The notes under the pieces were generated by a model, which searched no databases, had not been told where the DNA came from, and saw only the letters and a list, made by a program, of their open reading frames with translations. DNA of 5,352 nucleotides, taken from positions 1 through 5,352 of IMG/VR virus record IMGVR_UViG_3300013942_000028; one strand, given 5' to 3'. The DNA is from a virus. Its lineage: Duplodnaviria > Heunggongvirae > Uroviricota > Caudoviricetes. Positions 1-5,352 of the stretch are shown in pieces; positions within the stretch are counted from its first letter, which is position 1; each line of letters starts with the position of its first letter. A program made the position numbers and the translations under genes.

Positions 1-1
1 A

Positions 2-103
2 ACTGTTTCATTAGCCGAATGGAAAAAATACCGGGTGCTGCTGATGCGAGTTGATACAGCAGACCCGGACTGGCCTACTCCTCCGGCGACTCAGGCCAGT
101 TGA
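2..103 (+). CDS. Tail fiber assembly protein, C-terminal fragment (5' end lies left of the window); presumed active-orientation partner of the convergent tfa at 75..506
   Basis: Frame 2 is open from the window edge to TGA at 101..103 and reads [33 protein letters not shown]. This matches the lambda Tfa-family C-terminus as I recall it ([15 protein letters not shown]...APDIEWP). Not in the ORF track because no start codon falls inside the window. Confidence 0.6.
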
Positions 104-506
104 TATCTGGTGCGCTGGATATGTCCACAGATTCCAGCGCATCGAGATAATCCAGCCACTCGTTATACTGGGCCTTCTCGTCGTCTGTAAGTCGCCCCAG
201 CGCAGCTTTACCCGGCCACTGCTTGCTGTTTATATACTCATTAGCCTGATCGATACGATACTGTTTTTCAGCTTCAGCTGCTGCGATTTCCTCCTCATGG
301 CTTAAAGGTGGAATGTCTACCCATGCCGGCATTCCATCCTCAGTAGCTCCACGAGTTTTACCCTCTGGTGGCATCCCCGAATATTCAGTGAATGTCTCAT
401 CTGAGACGGCTATGAGATCGTCAGGCCAGTTTCTACTCGCTTCATAAACATCTCTGAGCTCATCAGGGTAGAAAGCGTTATTTAATGCTGAATAAAAATA
501 AGCCAT
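75..506 (-). CDS. tfa: Tail fiber assembly protein (Tfa/gpG/U-like chaperone), alternative copy inside the invertible segment
   Basis: 143-aa ORF ending ...[33 protein letters not shown], the Tfa-family C-terminal motif (W..Y/L....VD.S.APDI.WP). It starts 3 nt downstream of the stop of the tail-fiber cassette on the same strand (translational coupling) and converges on, and overlaps by 29 bp, the other tfa 3' end. Confidence 0.8.
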
Positions 507-509
507 TTA

Positions 510-917
510 TTAATACCCCACAGCAAAATAGTTAAACCCGCCAGCGCCGATGGATGATTCAGCGTTGGTTCCTGTCTGATAAGCGCGTAGCTGGAAATTA
601 GTTCTCGTAAAATCCTGGGCGGTTAACGCAAAACCTTGACCTGTACCCCCAACACTCTGGTCTGTTGCAACAACACATAGCGCCCTGGTTGGAAACGCAA
701 TCGGGAATGATACTGTTTCTGGGGATGTTTTCGTTTTGGCTATTGCCCATTGAAGAATTAACCCGCCTGGCAGGTATTGATACCCCGAATCGGCTCGCTG
801 ATTACCAAATGAAGACATGTCCGGAATCTGTCCGGAACCAGTGCCAACATTTTTTTTTGCCGCATCTCCTAAACCAACGTTTAAGAAAATGCAGAGGTAA
901 CAGCTAACTGGCATCAT
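510..917 (-). CDS. Tail fiber protein C-terminal variable (receptor-binding) cassette, currently in the silent orientation. The ATG at 917 is probably not a real start; the cassette is expected to be expressed only after inversion fuses it to a constant N-terminal tail-fiber segment outside the window
   Basis: Translation contains the side-tail-fiber C-terminal signature ...YLPGGLILQWAIAKT...VSFPIAFPTRALCVVATD..., resembling the Mu S/S', P1 and e14/rac Stf variable domains. The hix-like crossover site lies inside codons ~10-18. An in-frame stop sits just upstream (927..929) and no RBS is evident. Confidence 0.7.
   Translation of the reverse strand: MMPVSCYLCIFLNVGLGDAAKKNVGTGSGQIPDMSSFGNQRADSGYQYLPGGLILQWAIAKTKTSPETVSFPIAFPTRALCVVATDQSVGGTGQGFALTAQDFTRTNFQLRAYQTGTNAESSIGAGGFNYFAVGY
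864..889. other. 26-bp invertase crossover site (hix/gix/cix/pix-like), right-hand copy
   Basis: ATCTCCTAAACC-AA-CGTTTAAGAAAA: two imperfect 12-bp inverted half-sites around a central AA. By my recollection of hixL (TTCTTGAAAACCAAGGTTTTTGATAA) 19 of 26 positions match, including the AAACC-AA-(G/C)GTTT core. Confidence 0.6.
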
Positions 918-944
918 CTCCGGTTTTTATTCAGGGGGATGATC

Positions 945-1520
945 ATGCTTATTGGCTATGTACGCGTGTCAACAAATGACCAGAACACCGATTTGCAACG
1001 TAATGCACTGAACTGCGCGGGATGTGAGCGGATTTTTGAGGACAAAATCAGTGGCACTAAGTCCGACAGACCGGGGCTGAAAAAACTACTCAGGACACTA
1101 TCGGCAGGTGACACGCTGGTTGTCTGGAAGCTGGACAGGTTGGGACGCAGTATGCGGCATCTTGTTACGCTGATAGAAGAGTTGCGCCAGCGTGGCGTGA
1201 ATTTCCGAAGCCTGACTGACAGTATTGATACCAGTACCCCAATGGGCCGTTTCTTTTTTCATGTCATGGGTGCCCCGGCTGAAATGGAACGCGAACTGAT
1301 AGTTGAACGTACCAGGGCGGGGATTGCTGCAGCTCGCGACAAAGGCAGAGTAGGTGGACGCCGTCCTAAGTTGACCACCGAACAGTGGGCACAGATTGGA
1401 CGTTTACTAGAGGCCGGAGAATCAAGACAGCGTATTGCACTGATTTTTGATGTGGGCATTTCTACCATTTATAGAAAATTTCCGGCAAATAAGAGCAGTG
1501 AATCCCCTGAATCAGCATAA
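945..1520 (+). CDS. Site-specific serine DNA invertase (Hin/Gin/Pin/Cin family resolvase-invertase)
   Basis: N-terminus MLIGYVRVSTNDQNTDLQRNA with the catalytic Ser in VRVSTNDQ, the GDTLVVWKLDRLGRS and MGRFFFHVMGA...AEMERELIVERT blocks, and a C-terminal HTH (GESRQRIALIFDVGISTIYRKF). Near-identical in motif order to Gin/Pin/Hin as I recall them. GGGGG at 934..938 is a Shine-Dalgarno 6 nt before the ATG at 945. The track's ATG at 939 is in frame and adds two residues; 945 gives the canonical MLIGYV start. Confidence 0.93.
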   Translation: MLIGYVRVSTNDQNTDLQRNALNCAGCERIFEDKISGTKSDRPGLKKLLRTLSAGDTLVVWKLDRLGRSMRHLVTLIEELRQRGVNFRSLTDSIDTSTPMGRFFFHVMGAPAEMERELIVERTRAGIAAARDKGRVGGRRPKLTTEQWAQIGRLLEAGESRQRIALIFDVGISTIYRKFPANKSSESPESA

Positions 1521-1637
1521 TTTTGATTATCCCTGCAAGTAGACAAATACCGTCATTTTGTGTGAATAACTGTACAACTACACTTAGCTGTTTGTCGGGC
1601 ACAATCACTTCAACATAGGGCGAAGCCTAATCCAATC

Positions 1638-1643
1638 AGGAGG
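1638..1643 (+). promoter_or_regulatory. Shine-Dalgarno sequence of the tail sheath gene
   Basis: AGGAGG 9 nt upstream of the ATG at 1653. Confidence 0.6.
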
Positions 1644-1652
1644 TTCGCCGCT

Positions 1653-2825
1653 ATGGCTCAGGATTACCACCACGGGGTGCGCGTTGTTGAAATCAACGAA
1701 GGCACCCGATCCATTACCACGGTGAGCACCGCCATCGTGGGTATGGTCTGCACGGGCGATGATGCCGATGCAAAAATGTTTCCTCTTAATAAACCCGTGC
1801 TGATCACTGATGTGCTGACTGCCAGCGGTAAAGCGGGTGAGTCCGGCACGCTGGCCCGTTCGCTGGATGCCATCGCTGACCAGGCAAAACCCGTGACCGT
1901 TGTTGTGCGTGTGCCGCAGGGTGAAACGGAAGAAGAAACCACGACCAATATCATCGGCGCAGTGACTGCTGAAGGTAAAAAAACAGGCATGAAAGCCCTG
2001 TTATCTGCCCAGACACAGCTCGGCGTTAAACCGCGCATTCTCGGCGTGCCAGGTCACGATAACAAAGCCGTTGCTACTGAGTTGCTGAGTGTGGCGCAAA
2101 GCCTGCGTGGGTTTGCTTACCTGTCAGCGTATGGCTGCAAGACGGTGCAGGAGGCGATCACTTACCGTGAAAACTTCAGCCAGCGCGAAGGAATGCTGAT
2201 CTGGCCCGACTTTACTGGCTGGGACACGGTGCTGAATGCCGAAGCAACGGCATATGCCACCGCCCGTGCGCTTGGTCTGCGTGCCAAAATTGATGAGCAG
2301 ACTGGATGGCACAAAAGCCTGTCCAACGTGGGCGTGAACGGTGTCACCGGAATTTCTGCAGATGTGTTCTGGGATCTGCAGGACCCGGCAACCGATGCAG
2401 GTCTGCTGAACCAGAACGACGTCACCACGCTTGTGCGTAAAGACGGTTTCCGCTTCTGGGGTTCCCGCTGCCTGAGTGATGACCCGCTCTTTGCCTTCGA
2501 AAACTACACCCGCACGGCGCAGGTGCTGACGGACACAATGGCAGAAGCGCACATGTGGGCAGTGGACAAACCGCTGAACCCGTCGCTGGCGCGCGACATT
2601 ATCGAGGGCATCCGCGCCAAAATGCGCAGCCTGGTCAGTCAGGGGTATCTCATTGGTGGTGATTGCTGGCTGGACGAGTCGGTGAACGACAAAGACACTC
2701 TGAAAGCCGGAAAACTCACCATCGACTATGACTACACGCCAGTGCCGCCACTTGAAAATCTGATGCTGCGCCAGCGCATCACCGATCAGTACCTGGTGAA
2801 TTTCGCCAGCCAGGTCAGCGCGTAA
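1653..2825 (+). CDS. FI: Contractile tail sheath protein (P2 gpFI homologue)
   Basis: 390 aa, close to the P2 FI length. N-terminus [52 protein letters not shown] and internal blocks ([61 protein letters not shown]) match P2 FI from memory. Strong RBS. Confidence 0.95.
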
Positions 2826-2834
2826 GGGGACAAC

Positions 2835-3350
2835 ATGGCTTTACCACGCAAATTAAAACATCTGAACTTGTTTAACGACGGGAACAACTGGCAGGGGATC
2901 GTTGAGTCGCTGACGCTGCCGAAATTCACCCGCAAATATGAGAAGTATCGCGGCGGCGGTATGCCGGGGGCGGTGGATGTGGATCTGGGACTGGATGACA
3001 GTGCACTGGATACAGAATTTTCCATTGGTGGTACTGAACTGCTGCTGTTTAAGCAGATGGGCATATCCACGGTGGATGGCATCCAGCTGCGCTTTACCGG
3101 CTCTATCCAGCGTGACGATACCGGGGAAGTGCAGGCCGTGGAGCTTGTCGTGCGTGGACGTCACAAAGAAGTGGATTCCGGCGAGTGGAAGACGGGCGAA
3201 AGCAACACCACCAAAGTGACCAGTACCAACAGCTACGCGAAGCTGACCATCAATGGTGAGGTGCTCTATGAAGTGGACCTTATCAACATGGTGGAAATTG
3301 TGGACGGTGTTGACCTGATGGAAGCGCACCGCAACGCCCTCGGCCTCTGA
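2835..3350 (+). CDS. FII: Tail tube protein (P2 gpFII homologue)
   Basis: 171 aa starting MALPRKLKHLNLFNDGNNWQG..., the characteristic P2 FII-type N-terminus. It sits immediately downstream of the sheath gene as in P2, with GGGGA 5 nt before the ATG. Confidence 0.93.
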   Translation: MALPRKLKHLNLFNDGNNWQGIVESLTLPKFTRKYEKYRGGGMPGAVDVDLGLDDSALDTEFSIGGTELLLFKQMGISTVDGIQLRFTGSIQRDDTGEVQAVELVVRGRHKEVDSGEWKTGESNTTKVTSTNSYAKLTINGEVLYEVDLINMVEIVDGVDLMEAHRNALGL

Positions 3351-3404
3351 TGTATCTGAACGGCGCGGAATGCCGCGCCAGAACCTAATTTACAGGACAA
3401 CAAA

Positions 3405-3707
3405 ATGAGCGATAAACAGACTGAAAAGACCATTCAACTGGATACCCCCATCATGCGCGGTAAAACAGAAATTACCGAAATTGTGTTGCGTAAACCGCAG
3501 TCTGGTGCGCTGCGCGGCACACGCCTGCAGGCCATTATGGATATGGATGTGAACGCGATGATGACCGTGATCCCCCGCATCTCCAGTCCGGCAGTGACTG
3601 CACAGGAAATCGCAGAGATGGACCCGGCAGATCTCACAGCCATGTCGGTTGAGGTTGTCACTTTTTTGTTGAAGAAGTCGGTGCTTGCCGGTTTACCGAC
3701 AGCCTGA
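3405..3707 (+). CDS. E: Tail assembly chaperone (P2 gpE homologue; lambda gpG analogue)
   Basis: 100-aa ORF between the tube and tape measure genes, the conserved position of E. It contains an in-frame slippery heptamer near its 3' end. Confidence 0.85.
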   Translation: MSDKQTEKTIQLDTPIMRGKTEITEIVLRKPQSGALRGTRLQAIMDMDVNAMMTVIPRISSPAVTAQEIAEMDPADLTAMSVEVVTFLLKKSVLAGLPTA

Positions 3708-3841
3708 CGGTTGACGATCTGGTGGCAGATATCGCCACCATTTTTCACTGGCCGCCATCCGTTACTGACGTTATGCCGCTGACCGAAGTGCTGGAATGGC
3801 GGTATAAAGCGATTCAGAGAAGCGGGGCCAACGATGAGTGA
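3405..3841 (+). CDS. Tail assembly chaperone frameshift product E+E' (frame 0 through 3668, then -1 frame to the TGA at 3839..3841), about 145 aa
   Basis: T TTT TTG at 3662..3668 is in the correct zero-frame register (act-ttt-ttg). The -1 frame from 3668 stays open for 57 codons (VEEVGACRFTDSLTVDDLVADIATIFHWPPSVTDVMPLTEVLEWRYKAIQRSGAND) and terminates 8 nt into the tape measure gene, as described for P2 E/E' and lambda G/GT. Confidence 0.7.
3662..3668 (+). other. Programmed -1 ribosomal frameshift slippery heptanucleotide (X XXY YYZ = T TTT TTG)
   Basis: Seen directly in the sequence, in the required register relative to the E reading frame. Confidence 0.7.
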
Positions 3842-5352
3842 TAACAACCTGCGCCTGCAGGTCATTCTTAATGCGGTTGACAAACTCACCCGCCCATTCC
3901 GTACTGCACAGGCCAGTTCGAAAGAGCTGGCTGGTGCAATCAGAAACTCCCGTGACGCATTAAAGCAACTCAATCAGGCGGGTAACAGCCTGGAAAAATT
4001 TCGCAAGCTGCAGGCCGATAACAAGAAGTTAGGCGACAGGCTGAACTATGCCAGACAGAAGGCTAATTTGCTTAGCTCTGAGCTGGAGGCGATGGAACAA
4101 CCATCACAACGGCACCTTGTGGCTTTAGGTCGGCAAACGCTGGCAGTCCAACGCCTGGAAGAACAACAAAAATATTTGCAGAAGCAAACGGCGCTTGTGC
4201 GTGCAGAACTGTACCGGGCGGGAATTTCTGCGAAAGATGATGCGGGAGCAACTGCCCGTTTAGCCCGTGAAACATCACGTTATAACCAGGAATTGTCGAA
4301 ACAGGAGGCGCGGCTGAAGCGACTGGGTGAAGCTCAGCGCAGGATGAATGCGGCGCGTGCCAGTTATGCCCGTTCGCTGGAGGTGCGCGATCGTATTGCA
4401 GGAGCCGGAGCCACTACCACGGCTGCAGGGCTGGCAATGGGGACGCCAGTGATGGCGGCAGTAAAAAGCTATACCAGCATGGAAGATGCCATGAAAGGTG
4501 TGGCAAAGCAGGTCAATGGTCTGCGTGACGATAATGGAAACCGTACTGCACGTTTTTATGAAATGCAGGATGCCATCAAGGCTGCCAGCGAACAGTTGCC
4601 GATGGAAAACGGTGCGGTGGACTTCGCTGCACTGGTTGAAGGTGGTGCGCGCATGAACGTCGCAAACCCTGACGACAGCTGGGAAGACCAGAAACGTGAC
4701 CTGCTGGCCTTCGCCAGTACGGCAGCAAAGGCGGCAACAGCCTTTGAGCTGCCAGCGGATGAACTGTCAGAAAGTCTGGGGAAAATCGCCCAGCTCTACA
4801 AAATACCTACCCGCAATATTGAACAGCTCGGCGATGCGCTGAACTATCTGGATGATAACGCCATGTCGAAAGGGGCGGACATCATTGATGTCATGCAACG
4901 TCTGGGCGGTGTGGCTGACCGTCTGGATTATCGTAAAGCGGCGGCACTGGGTTCCACCTTTCTGACACTGGGCGCTGCGCCGGAGGTTGCAGCCAGTGCA
5001 GCAAACGCGATGGTGCGTGAATTGTCCATTGCCACCATGCAAAGCAAGAGTTTCTTTGAAGGGATGAATCTGCTGAAACTCAATCCTGAAGTGATTGAAA
5101 AGCAGATGACGAAGGATGCGATGGGAACTATCCAGCGTGTGCTGGAGAAGGTGAACGCACTGCCGCAGGACAAGCGTCTGTCTGCCATGACCATGTTGTT
5201 TGGTAAAGAGTTTGGTGATGACGCGGCGAAACTGGCAAACAACCTTCCGGAACTGCAGCGCCAGCTAAAACTGACAGCGGGCAATGATGCGCTCGGTTCC
5301 ATGCAGAAAGAATCCGACATCAACAAAGACTCACTTTCTGCTCAGTGGTTGC
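3834..5352 (+). CDS. T: Tail tape measure protein (P2 gpT homologue), N-terminal ~506 codons; continues past the window end
   Basis: ATG at 3834 preceded by GGGG 8 nt upstream. I translated the frame by hand and it stays open to the window end with no stop. N-terminus MSDNNLRLQVILNAVDKLTRPFRTAQASSKELAG... followed by Q/L/E/R/A-rich heptad-like stretches typical of tape measure proteins. Position immediately after E/E' is conserved. Confidence 0.9.
   Translation, partial: MSDNNLRLQVILNAVDKLTRPFRTAQASSKELAGAIRNSRDALKQLNQAGNSLEKFRKLQADNKKLGDRLNYARQKANLLSSELEAMEQPSQRHLVALGRQTLAVQRLEEQQKYLQKQTALVRAELYRAGISAKDDAGATARLARETSRYNQELSKQEARLKRLGEAQRRMNAARASYARSLEVRDRIAGAGATTTAAGLAMGTPVMAAVKSYTSMEDAMKGVAKQVNGLRDDNGNRTARFYEMQDAIKAASEQLPMENGAVDFAALVEGGARMNVANPDDSWEDQKRDLLAFASTAAKAATAFELPADELSESLGKIAQLYKIPTRNIEQLGDALNYLDDNAMSKGADIIDVMQRLGGVADRLDYRKAAALGSTFLTLGAAPEVAASAANAMVRELSIATMQSKSFFEGMNLLKLNPEVIEKQMTKDAMGTIQRVLEKVNALPQDKRLSAMTMLFGKEFGDDAAKLANNLPELQRQLKLTAGNDALGSMQKESDINKDSLSAQWL

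What the first reader, a model, noticed from the sequence alone, without database searches (positions are those of the whole stretch)
510..929. Tail-fiber cassette has no autonomous start: ORF-track ATG at 917 is probably an artefact
The apparent start codon lies upstream of the crossover site in what should be the invertase promoter/leader, has no RBS, and the frame is closed by a stop only 3 codons further upstream (927..929). The true N-terminus is most likely supplied by the constant tail-fiber segment after inversion. Automated annotation would probably mis-call this as a complete 135-aa protein.
Basis: inference. Interest (0 to 1): 0.35.

Follow-up and report, generated by a model that had tools for sequence, protein, structure and literature searches.

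The report
Silent tail-fibre cassette with false start
The 135-codon ORF is the silent alternative tip of a P2-like prophage tail fibre, made only after a Gin-type invertase flips it onto the constant fibre gene; its ATG lies in fixed DNA next to the invertase gene, which is well-known biology that annotation pipelines still call as a complete protein.

Summary
Window 510..917 (-) is a real tail-fibre tip (Pfam Gp53-like_C, E 1e-18). It reads across a 26-bp Gin/Hin-type crossover site (864..889, core AA at 876..877). It then runs 13 more codons into the 55-bp gap before a Gin-like serine invertase (945..1520; 78% identical to Mu Gin).

The window matches a public E. coli contig exactly. That contig supplies the left site, which lies inside the 465-aa fibre gene. 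Inverting the 1547-bp segment in silico gives one continuous 471-aa fibre (…AGLLAYLGLGDAAKKNVG…). An E. coli genome carries the same cassette already fused in this way. Two sister isolates carry a near-identical prophage in opposite orientations.

The leader MMPVSCYLCIFLNV precedes three unrelated cassettes, so fixed DNA encodes it. The two ATGs are the complement of CATCAT, which sits in a conserved TGGCAnnnT motif resembling an extended -10 element of the invertase promoter. Of 44 related loci from other species, 27 have no in-frame start codon here at all.

NCBI lists this exact ORF as a complete protein, and the Mu RefSeq record has the same overrun. This is already known biology of low interest. 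One side note is a unique L111P change in the invertase.

The parts
2..103 (+). 3' end of the tail fibre assembly (tfa) gene of the currently expressed orientation. It is cut by the window edge and lies inside the invertible segment.
   Evidence: Pfam Caudo_TAP, E 1e-6, on the 33 residues present. It is the end of a 143-aa ORF in the identical contig L003.
75..506 (-). tfa', the assembly chaperone gene of the silent orientation. It starts 3 nt after the cassette stop and overlaps the other tfa gene convergently by 29 bp.
   Evidence: Pfam Caudo_TAP, E 1.9e-38; sequence read.
510..877 (-). Genuine coding part of the silent tail-fibre tip cassette (the equivalent of S'v in Mu). It runs from the crossover core to the stop TAA at 512..510.
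   Evidence: Pfam Gp53-like_C, E 1e-18. The identical stretch forms the C-terminus of a fused 397-aa fibre in L001 and of the in-silico inverted 471-aa fibre.
850..858 (.). T9 run (A9 on the coding strand, encoding AAKKN) just inside the crossover site.
   Evidence: There are 9 T in the window and in the fused L001 copy. There are 8 T, which shifts the frame, in five E. coli genomes that have also lost the invertase gene.
864..889 (.). Right crossover site, ATCTCCTAAACC AA CGTTTAAGAAAA. The inner half-site is 864..875, the 2-bp core is 876..877 and the outer half-site is 878..889.
   Evidence: Homology break-points at 865 and 880 in E. coli genomes. The junction was compared with the fused form. 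The inverted partner TTCTCGCATACC TT GGTTTGGGAGAG lies at window -683..-658 in the identical contig. It resembles the Mu site TTCCTGTAAACCGAGGTTTTGGATAA at the annotated G-segment boundary.
878..917 (-). Spurious N-terminal extension of the ORF (MMPVSCYLCIFLN plus part of V). It is encoded by the outer half-site and the fixed DNA ahead of the invertase gene, not by the cassette.
   Evidence: The same leader precedes three unrelated cassettes. It is replaced by ...AGLLAYLG in fused forms.
909..917 (+). TGGCATCAT, a conserved TGGCAnnnT motif that looks like an extended -10 element (TGn + CATCAT) of the invertase promoter. The minus-strand ATGs at 917..915 and 914..912 are its reverse complement. 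Its promoter function is inferred, not shown.
   Evidence: At least 80% conserved in the alignment of 40 distinct leaders chosen for having TGGCA, with AATG about 17-18 nt upstream and TTT downstream. Core-to-CAT spacing is a fixed 36 nt in 13 of 15 leaders. The strict sigma-70 scan did not report it.
927..929 (-). In-frame stop (TAA) that closes the ORF frame three codons upstream of the ATG.
945..1520 (+). Serine DNA invertase of the Gin/Hin/Cin/Pin group, 191 aa, with Ser9 present. AGGGGGA lies at 933..939, and the predicted anti-SD pairing ends 5 nt before the ATG. The ORF list starts at an upstream ATG at 939.
   Evidence: Pfam Resolvase E 9.5e-52 and HTH_7 E 1.7e-14. PDB 3uj3 (Mu Gin) matches at E 4e-92 over residues 1-184. 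SD energy is -9.4 kcal/mol.
1275..1277 (+). Codon CCG, Pro111 of the invertase, in the stretch that aligns with FFHVMGALAEVERELI of Gin. Relatives have CTG, which encodes Leu.
   Evidence: 63 of 64 homologues whose motif could be matched have Leu, and only the window has Pro.

Best explanation
Window 510..917 (-) is the silent alternative C-terminal cassette of the tail-fibre gene of a P2-like (Peduoviridae) prophage. The fibre gene is switched by a Mu-G-type invertible segment.

**Layout.** The 1547-bp segment lies between two inverted 26-bp crossover sites. It holds two convergent units, each made of a tip cassette and its own tfa chaperone gene. The left site sits inside the fibre gene, just after the constant part (about 353 aa). 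The right site (864..889) sits 55 bp before the invertase gene.

**Mechanism.** In the orientation sequenced, the constant part is joined to the other cassette, giving a 465-aa fibre. The window's cassette points away from the late operon and has no promoter or usable start of its own. When the Gin-like serine invertase exchanges strands at the AA/TT cores, the segment flips. The window's cassette is then joined in frame to the constant part, giving a 471-aa fibre with the junction ...DVAGLLAYLG|LGDAAKKNVG.... Its tfa' follows 3 nt after its stop and would be expressed with it.

**The apparent start.** The ATG at 917 is an accident of geometry. The cassette frame stays open across the outer half-site for 13 more codons. 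It then meets the complement of CATCAT, which lies in the conserved TGGCAnnnT motif ahead of the invertase gene.

**Shown versus inferred.** Shown here: the sites, the in-frame fusion, natural fused copies, both orientations in sister isolates, and the fixed-DNA origin of the leader. Inferred: that TGGCATCAT is the invertase -10 element, and that this particular copy still inverts.
For: - **Domains.** Gp53-like_C tip, two Caudo_TAP genes, and Resolvase plus HTH_7.
- **Invertase.** About 78% identical to Mu Gin (PDB 3uj3, E 4e-92), with Ser9 present.
- **Source contig.** The window is 100% identical to GCA_023044015.1 contig DAHAEQ010000009.1, which adds 9.5 kb to the left.
- **Sites.** Only two site-like sequences occur in the 6.5 kb scanned (window -4491..2009), in inverted orientation with matching cores.
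- **In-silico inversion.** It gives a continuous 471-aa ORF with Phage_tail_fib at residues 1-150 and Gp53-like_C at 385-471.
- **Natural fusion.** The same cassette is fused in NZ_CM151386.1 and NZ_CP182145.1, both annotated 'phage tail protein'.
- **Inversion in vivo.** Sister isolates SW071611 and SW071619 have identical flanks and inverted segments. Their fibres share the first 354 aa and swap C-termini with the invertase-adjacent ORFs, with suffix identities of 118 and 167 aa.
- **Leader.** MMPVSCYLCIFLNV is identical on three unrelated cassettes.
- **Predicted product seen.** The 129-aa ORF predicted to lie next to the invertase after inversion exists exactly in ENA.
- **Start codon not conserved.** In 27 of 44 related loci there is none, and 4 of 13 in-frame CAT motifs are cut off by stops.
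- **SD mis-spaced**, and no promoter-like site on either strand of 400..1700.
- **Curated precedent.** In Mu RefSeq the GeneMark CDS Mup52 ends at 35053. That is 29 nt past the annotated G-segment boundary at 35025, and a curated note calls it the carboxyl-terminal end of S'.
- **Published precedent.** Goldberg et al. 2014 (PMC4272514) describe e14 stfE/ycfK fusion on inversion and phase-variable P2-like prophage loci. The Mu S/U and S'/U' switch is described in PMC4406740.
Against: - No expression data exist for this element.
- The exact 471-aa fused protein is not in the 15-billion-protein collection. This exact lineage has therefore been seen only in the present orientation, on 6 contigs.
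- Its invertase has a unique L111P change at a position that is Leu in 63 of 64 relatives. This copy may no longer invert by itself.
- The frame is open from an ATG-ATG pair with a nearby GGAG, so weak independent initiation cannot be excluded from sequence alone.
- The in-frame ATG 12 codons before the core recurs in several lineages, including Mu. I attribute this to the fixed 36-nt spacing between site and motif. That is an inference.
Confidence: 0.93

Rival explanations
1. The ORF is a genuine stand-alone gene. Translation starts at ATG 917 or 914 and yields a free 135-aa receptor-binding tip, for example a decoy or superinfection-exclusion factor, made while the cassette is in the 'silent' position.
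For: - The frame is open from an ATG-ATG pair, and a GGAG lies directly upstream.
- An in-frame ATG 12 codons before the core recurs in 12 of 44 related loci and in Mu.
- Annotation pipelines accept it.
Against: - The 14 leader residues are encoded by fixed DNA and are identical on unrelated cassettes.
- Between the conserved M-P (the complement of TGGCAT) and the half-site-encoded residues, the leaders share no amino-acid conservation.
- 27 of 44 loci have no start codon at all, and 4 of 13 in-frame CAT motifs are separated from the cassette by stops.
- SD spacing is 0-3 nt.
- No promoter-like site lies on the minus strand inside the invertase gene.
- The product would lack the Phage_tail_fib N-terminal domain that the fused fibre has. 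From general knowledge of phage fibres, that domain attaches the fibre to the baseplate.
- Five genomes tolerate a frameshift between this ATG and the cassette.
Confidence: 0.04
2. The cassette is start-less as described, but in this lineage the switch is frozen. The L111P invertase would be inactive. The cassette would then be a permanently silent remnant unless another Gin-family invertase in the cell acts in trans.
For: - Pro111 is unique. 63 of 64 related invertases, including Gin and the demonstrably active SW0716xx enzyme, have Leu.
- The residue aligns with the FFHVMGALAEVERELI stretch of Gin. From my knowledge of Gin and resolvase structures, this is the start of the long helix E that forms the dimer and tetramer interface.
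- The same P111 protein occurs on 7 contigs, so it is not a read error.
- All 6 contigs with this ORF show the same orientation, and the exact fused protein is absent from the collection.
- Related decay is seen elsewhere: five genomes have lost the invertase and carry a frameshift in the cassette.
Against: - Both sites, the matching cores, the A9 tract and both cassette frames are intact.
- Six contigs is a small sample.
- No assay of L111P exists, and helix-E changes in this family can also be activating. The Gin crystal construct carries M114V (visible).
- Gin-family invertases are known to substitute for one another (my knowledge, not tested here).
Confidence: 0.25
3. A shorter stand-alone product starts at an internal ATG inside the cassette, for example Met34 at 818..816.
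For: An ATG exists at 818, and PGAP called a shorter 96-aa CDS for a related cassette in NZ_CP121151.1.
Against: The best anti-SD pairing upstream of 818 is -3.2 kcal/mol at 11 nt. There is no promoter. The residues before Met34 are conserved as part of fused fibres.
Confidence: 0.02

Closest known systems
Invertible G segment of phage Mu (Sc | Sv-U / U'-S'v | gin)
   Same: - A Gin-type serine invertase (about 78% identical) lies directly outside the right site.
- The 26-bp sites have the AAACC-NN-GGTTT core pattern.
- One site lies inside the fibre gene, so a constant N-terminus is joined to either of two C-termini, each followed by its own assembly gene.
- The silent S'v frame runs past the segment boundary into the DNA ahead of gin. 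GeneMark calls a start there, 29 nt beyond the boundary, at the homologous TGGCAT.
   Different: - The host phage is P2-like, with the invertase between the fibre genes and the sheath gene FI, not a transposable Mu-like phage.
- The segment is 1.5 kb instead of 3 kb.
- The constant part is long (about 353 aa against about 169 aa in Mu) and the cassettes are short (about 120 aa).
- Similarity between the two sites extends only a few bases beyond the 26-bp site, against the 34-bp repeats described for Mu (PMC4406740).
P segment of the e14 element of E. coli K-12 (pinE, stfE, ycfK/stfP, tfaE, tfaP)
   Same: A Pin invertase lies next to an invertible segment. On inversion stfE is joined to ycfK to give a longer ORF, and both orientations coexist in culture (PMC4272514).
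   Different: e14 is a defective lambdoid remnant that lacks the rest of the fibre gene. Here the whole P2-type tail module is intact.
Invertible tail-fibre loci of P2-like prophages (EPEC E2348/69 prophages; Escherichia phage Cartapus, phage 500465-1, Klebsiella phage KP12)
   Same: - The gene order is the same: I, H, tfa, tfa', cassette, invertase, FI.
- The invertase DNA is 94-96% identical.
- The invertase-adjacent cassette is annotated as a separate 'tail fiber protein' starting about 30 nt from the invertase gene.
- Phase variation of such loci has been shown by sequencing (PMC4272514).
   Different: - The pair of cassettes is different. The window's cassette occurs in only 7 of 5426 complete E. 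coli genomes.
- One EPEC locus has three repeats and four variants. The window's element has only two sites.
- The window's invertase carries L111P.
C segment of phage P1 (cin) and the Min system of plasmid p15B
   Same: By my knowledge of the literature, these are also Gin-family invertases that switch tail-fibre C-termini. They were not examined here.
   Different: Min has six sites and many cassettes.

Membership tests
Gin/Hin/Cin/Pin-type invertible tail-fibre segment (Mu G type) | Small serine recombinase of the Gin/Hin group with a catalytic Ser near position 9 and a C-terminal HTH | tested here: met
   Pfam Resolvase E 9.5e-52 and HTH_7 E 1.7e-14. Mu Gin (3uj3) matches at E 4e-92 over residues 1-184, and MLIGYVRVS has Ser9.
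Gin/Hin/Cin/Pin-type invertible tail-fibre segment (Mu G type) | Two 26-bp crossover sites in inverted orientation with identical 2-bp cores | tested here: met
   The right site is at 864..889 with core AA. The left site is at window -683..-658 (in the identical contig L003) with core TT, which is the complement of AA. They are the only two sites in the 6.5 kb scanned.
Gin/Hin/Cin/Pin-type invertible tail-fibre segment (Mu G type) | One site inside the fibre gene, so that both orientations give an in-frame fibre with a common N-terminus | tested here: met
   The native fibre is 465 aa and the in-silico inverted fibre is 471 aa, both continuous. Natural fused copies exist.
Gin/Hin/Cin/Pin-type invertible tail-fibre segment (Mu G type) | Each alternative C-terminus is followed by its own tail fibre assembly gene, with the two units convergent | tested here: met
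   Two Caudo_TAP genes, at 2..103 (+, cut by the window edge) and 75..506 (-).
Gin/Hin/Cin/Pin-type invertible tail-fibre segment (Mu G type) | Inversion actually occurs | tested here: inconclusive
   Sister isolates show both orientations. Their invertase differs from the window's only at residue 111. In 20 of 80 species-representative loci the contig ends 63-130 bp upstream of the invertase start, and at least 13 begin in the site itself. For the window's own L111P lineage only one orientation has been seen.
Gin/Hin/Cin/Pin-type invertible tail-fibre segment (Mu G type) | Fis-dependent recombinational enhancer in cis, which lies in the 5' part of the invertase gene in Mu, P1 and Salmonella | not tested
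   No Fis-site model was run and the consensus is too degenerate for a pattern search. The only relevant result is the high protein similarity to gin across that region.
P2-like phage (Peduoviridae) tail module | Gene order V-W-J-I-H-G then FI-FII-E/E'-T-U-D, with the Ogr late activator | tested here: met
   Pfam families along L003 are Phage_base_V, GPW_gp25, Baseplate_J, Tail_P2_I, sheath, tube, TAC_7, P2_GpE, PhageMin_Tail, P2_GpU, GPD and Ogr_Delta. The nearest phages are Peduoviridae.
Autonomous protein-coding gene (the reading that automated annotation gives) | A start codon with a translation initiation region that belongs to the gene and is conserved with it | tested here: not met
   The start lies outside the mobile segment in fixed DNA shared by unrelated cassettes. 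SD spacing is 0-3 nt. 27 of 44 related loci have no start codon.

The most novel reading that the evidence does not exclude
The recurrent in-frame ATG 12-13 codons outside the crossover site might not be a mere by-product of the invertase -10-like motif. This ATG is present in the window, in 12 of 44 related loci and in Mu. It could support low-level translation of the silent cassette as a free receptor-binding tip, for example from transcripts that run antisense to the invertase gene. A lysogen would then make a soluble tip domain of the non-displayed specificity, which could act as a receptor decoy or in exclusion.
Probability: 0.03. Interest if true: 0.5.

Novelty: already known. Interest (0 to 1): 0.12.

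Why it matters
The value is mainly in annotation quality.

- **Chimeric database entries.** The exact ORF, and its counterparts next to almost every invertase of this type, are deposited as complete proteins. They are named 'gp53-like domain-containing protein', 'phage tail protein' or 'hypothetical protein'. Their first 13-14 residues are translated from non-coding DNA ahead of the invertase gene.
- **Knock-on effects.** These chimeric N-termini enter protein clusters and profile models. They hide the fact that each such prophage encodes two host-range specificities on one fibre gene.
- **Host-range prediction.** Anyone predicting host range from prophage sequence should rebuild both fused fibres rather than use the ORF as called.
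- **No new mechanism.** The mechanism itself is the classic Mu G, P1 C and e14 P paradigm.

Tried and rejected
- **Sigma-70 scan.** The strict scan of 400..1700 found no promoter on either strand. The proposed invertase promoter therefore rests only on conservation of TGGCAnnnT and an upstream AATG. It is an inference.
- **Weak hairpin with a T-run at 906..925 (+).** The terminator scan reported it. It is not distinguishable from chance (4 sites found against 1.5 ± 1.4 expected) and was not pursued.
- **Primary papers.** Plasterk & van de Putte 1985 (e14) and Mehta et al. 2004 are not held. A search for 'gin/cin/hin promoter' returned nothing relevant.
- **NCBIfam.** It has no model for the cassette or for tfa'.
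- **Exact look-up of the predicted 471-aa fused fibre.** It is not in the collection. The fusion is therefore supported by a 99.5%-identical cassette on a different constant region, not by the identical protein.
- **Short-read contig L004.** This 1610-bp contig ends exactly at the left site. That could reflect mixed orientations in the sample, but it could equally be a repeat-induced break, so I did not use it as evidence.
- **A multi-site (shufflon-like or Min-like) system.** I considered this and rejected it, because only two sites were found in the 6.5 kb scanned.
- **No complete E. coli genome covers 80% or more of window 1..1650**. The exact source was found through the protein look-up instead.

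Full report
**What is in the window.**
The window carries part of a P2-like prophage tail region. From left to right it holds:
- the 3' end of a tail fibre assembly gene (2..103, +);
- a second, convergent assembly gene (75..506, -);
- the ORF in question (510..917, -, 135 aa);
- a serine recombinase gene (939 or 945..1520, +);
- the tail sheath (1653..2825), tail tube (2835..3350) and tail chaperone E (3405..3707) genes;
- the start of the tape-measure gene (from 3834).

The ORF matches Pfam Gp53-like_C over residues 49-135 (E 1e-18), so most of it is real tail-fibre tip coding sequence. The recombinase is about 78% identical to Mu Gin over 184 residues (PDB 3uj3, E 4e-92) and has the catalytic Ser9.

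**Checking the observation.**
- On the minus strand the sequence reads ...GAA TAA AAA CCG GAG ATG ATG CCA GTT.... The stop is at 929..927, three codons follow (K P E), then ATG at 917..915 and a second ATG at 914..912.
- The crossover site is ATCTCCTAAACC AA CGTTTAAGAAAA at 864..889. I placed it in two ways. First, E. coli genomes that share only one side of the region break off at 880 or begin at 865. Second, a copy of the same cassette in NZ_CM151386.1 diverges from the window exactly after CCTAAACCAA.
- The ATG therefore lies 26 nt outside the site and 28 nt before the invertase start codon.
- The 'no RBS' statement needs one qualification. A GGAG is present but it abuts the ATG, at 0 nt spacing to 917 and 2-3 nt to 914, with -5.4 kcal/mol. 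The invertase has -9.4 kcal/mol at 5 nt and the sheath gene has -11.0 at 7 nt.

**Recovering the left site and doing the proposed test.**
- A gene with exactly this 135-aa product is on record on six contigs. One of them, GCA_023044015.1 DAHAEQ010000009.1, matches the whole 5352-base window with no mismatch and extends 9.5 kb to the left.
- In that contig the only other site-like sequence in the 6.5 kb scanned is TTCTCGCATACC TT GGTTTGGGAGAG at window -683..-658. It is in inverted orientation and lies inside a 465-aa fibre gene. The cores are AA and TT, so they are compatible.
- Inverting the 1547 bp between the cores gives a continuous 471-aa ORF with the junction ...NLSGKDVAGLLAYLGLGDAAKKNVGTGSG.... 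It has Phage_tail_fib at 1-150 and Gp53-like_C at 385-471.

**Natural evidence.**
- The window's cassette occurs in 7 of 5426 complete E. coli genomes. In two it is fused and annotated as a single 'phage tail protein'. In five it sits in the silent position and is annotated 'gp53-like domain-containing protein'.
- In NZ_CM151386.1 the fused 397-aa protein ends with the window's cassette from GLGDAAKK onward. The other cassette lies next to the invertase and begins MMPVARYLCIFINVGLG....
- Isolates SW071611 and SW071619 come from the same wastewater source, with chromosomes of 5,209,397 and 5,209,399 bp. Their flanks are identical and their invertase differs from the window's only at residue 111. 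Their segments are in opposite orientations.
- The two fibres in those isolates share 354 N-terminal residues. Each invertase-adjacent ORF equals the C-terminus of the other isolate's fibre (118 and 167 identical C-terminal residues). Both begin MMPVSCYLCIFLNV, exactly as in the window, although the three cassettes are unrelated.
- The leader therefore belongs to the fixed DNA, not to the cassette.
- The 129-aa ORF predicted to lie next to the invertase after inversion of the window's element exists exactly in ENA.

**Why there is an ATG at all.**
- I collected 80 invertase loci, one per species, from Enterobacterales and a few others. I then aligned the DNA between the site and the invertase start.
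- I aligned the 40 distinct leaders that contain TGGCA. Within them, TGGCAnnnT is at least 80% conserved. AATG lies about 17-18 nt upstream, overlapping the outer end of the site, and a T-run lies downstream.
- In the window this motif is TGGCATCAT at 909..917. It has the form of an extended -10 element (TGn plus a hexamer with A at position 2 and T at position 6).
- The two minus-strand ATGs are the reverse complement of the hexamer CATCAT.
- The distance from site core to CAT is a fixed 36 nt in 13 of 15 such leaders. The CAT therefore falls automatically into the cassette frame, which encodes N-V/L-G-L-G across the site. In 4 of those 13 a stop codon separates it from the cassette.
- Apart from M-P (the complement of TGGCAT) and the residues encoded by the half-site, the leader peptides share nothing.
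- Across all 44 distinct loci with a site and an open cassette of at least 80 codons, 27 have no in-frame ATG, GTG or TTG upstream of the core. Often a stop lies one codon before it. Five have only GTG or TTG, and 12 have an ATG.
- A start codon is thus not a conserved feature of these cassettes.
- The promoter assignment is my inference. The strict sigma-70 scan did not report it, and I found no paper on it.

**Annotation.**
- The prediction that pipelines would call a complete 135-aa protein is borne out. WP_407234347.1, EHN2272924.1 and HCB3846594.1 have exactly this sequence and carry no 'partial' flag.
- PGAP calls the equivalent ORFs in every related genome I inspected.
- Five genomes have lost the invertase gene and carry a 1-nt deletion in the T9 run. 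There PGAP still finds a 132-aa CDS by choosing a non-ATG start in a different upstream frame.
- The Mu RefSeq record shows the same thing. CDS Mup52 ('Predicted by GeneMark') runs to 35053. Curated features place the G-segment boundary at 35025 and describe the region as the carboxyl-terminal end of S' in G(-) phage.

**Comparison with what is known.**
This is the Mu G, P1 C and e14 P design, placed between the H-G fibre genes and the FI sheath gene of a P2-like phage. Inversion-dependent fusion of stfE to ycfK in e14, and phase-variable loci in P2-like prophages of EPEC, are published (PMC4272514). The S/U and S'/U' switch of Mu is summarised in PMC4406740. Isolated phages with 94-96% identical invertase DNA include Cartapus, 500465-1 and KP12. 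All defining features that I could test are met. The Fis enhancer was not tested.

**What remains open.**
- The window's invertase carries Pro at residue 111 (CCG at 1275..1277). Gin and 63 of 64 matched relatives have Leu there.
- The same protein is on seven contigs, so the change is real.
- This lineage has been seen only in the present orientation.
- It is possible, at about one in four in my estimate, that this copy no longer inverts on its own. That would not change the verdict on the ATG.

**Verdict.**
The feature is already known, and its interest is low except as a widespread annotation artefact.

Noticed in passing
window 1275..1277 (invertase codon 111): The invertase has Pro (CCG) where Mu Gin, the active sister-isolate enzyme and 63 of 64 matched relatives have Leu (CTG). 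The residue is in the FFHVMGA-L-AEMEREL stretch. The same variant occurs on 7 contigs from E. coli and Shigella sonnei. The enzyme may be inactive, which would freeze the switch in this lineage.
   Followed up: partly
window 850..858; L005 (NZ_CP018948.1) 6850..6860: A T9 run (A9 on the coding strand) lies just inside the crossover site. Five E. coli genomes have T8, which shifts the cassette out of frame with the site. The same genomes have a clean deletion of the whole invertase gene (window ~897..1524). PGAP still calls a 132-aa CDS there with a non-ATG start.
   Followed up: partly
window 887..917 and 40 related leaders (loci L010-L089, Mu L008): There is a conserved TGGCAnnnT motif with AATG about 17-18 nt upstream, overlapping the outer half-site, and a T-run downstream. 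It looks like an extended -10 promoter for the invertase that overlaps the crossover site, which would allow autoregulation. It is conserved from Mu to the P2-like elements.
   Followed up: partly
loci L010, L018, L020, L021, L029, L035, L037, L039, L043, L051, L065, L073, L074 and others: In 20 of 80 species-representative assemblies the contig ends 63-130 bp upstream of the invertase start. In at least 13 the contig begins inside the 26-bp crossover site. This is the pattern expected when the sequenced culture held both orientations.
   Followed up: partly
window 3662..3668 and 3722..3841: A slippery TTTTTTG lies near the end of the E gene (3405..3707), followed by a 39-codon 'GpE family' ORF in another frame. 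By my knowledge of P2, this is the E/E' programmed -1 frameshift. This small ORF is a second start-less reading frame in the window that pipelines annotate as a separate protein.
   Followed up: no
window 1559..1576: TGT-N12-ACA (TGTGTGAATAACTGTACA) lies about 77-94 nt upstream of the sheath gene start. By my knowledge it has the form of the Ogr/Delta-dependent P2 late promoter element. An ogr-like gene (Pfam Ogr_Delta) is present at the end of the prophage in L003.
   Followed up: no
window 75..103: The two convergent tail fibre assembly genes overlap by 29 bp at their 3' ends, so each strand encodes the C-terminus of one chaperone. The same overlap is seen in every related locus inspected.
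   Followed up: no
L015, L029, L035, L036: Some related invertase loci have a longer spacer (about 120-130 bp) between site and invertase start, with a shared motif (...CAGAAATGAC...GCTCGATA(C/A)AATG...). L028/L030 have a C17 run and no site within 140 bp. These are different leader architectures and were not examined.
   Followed up: no
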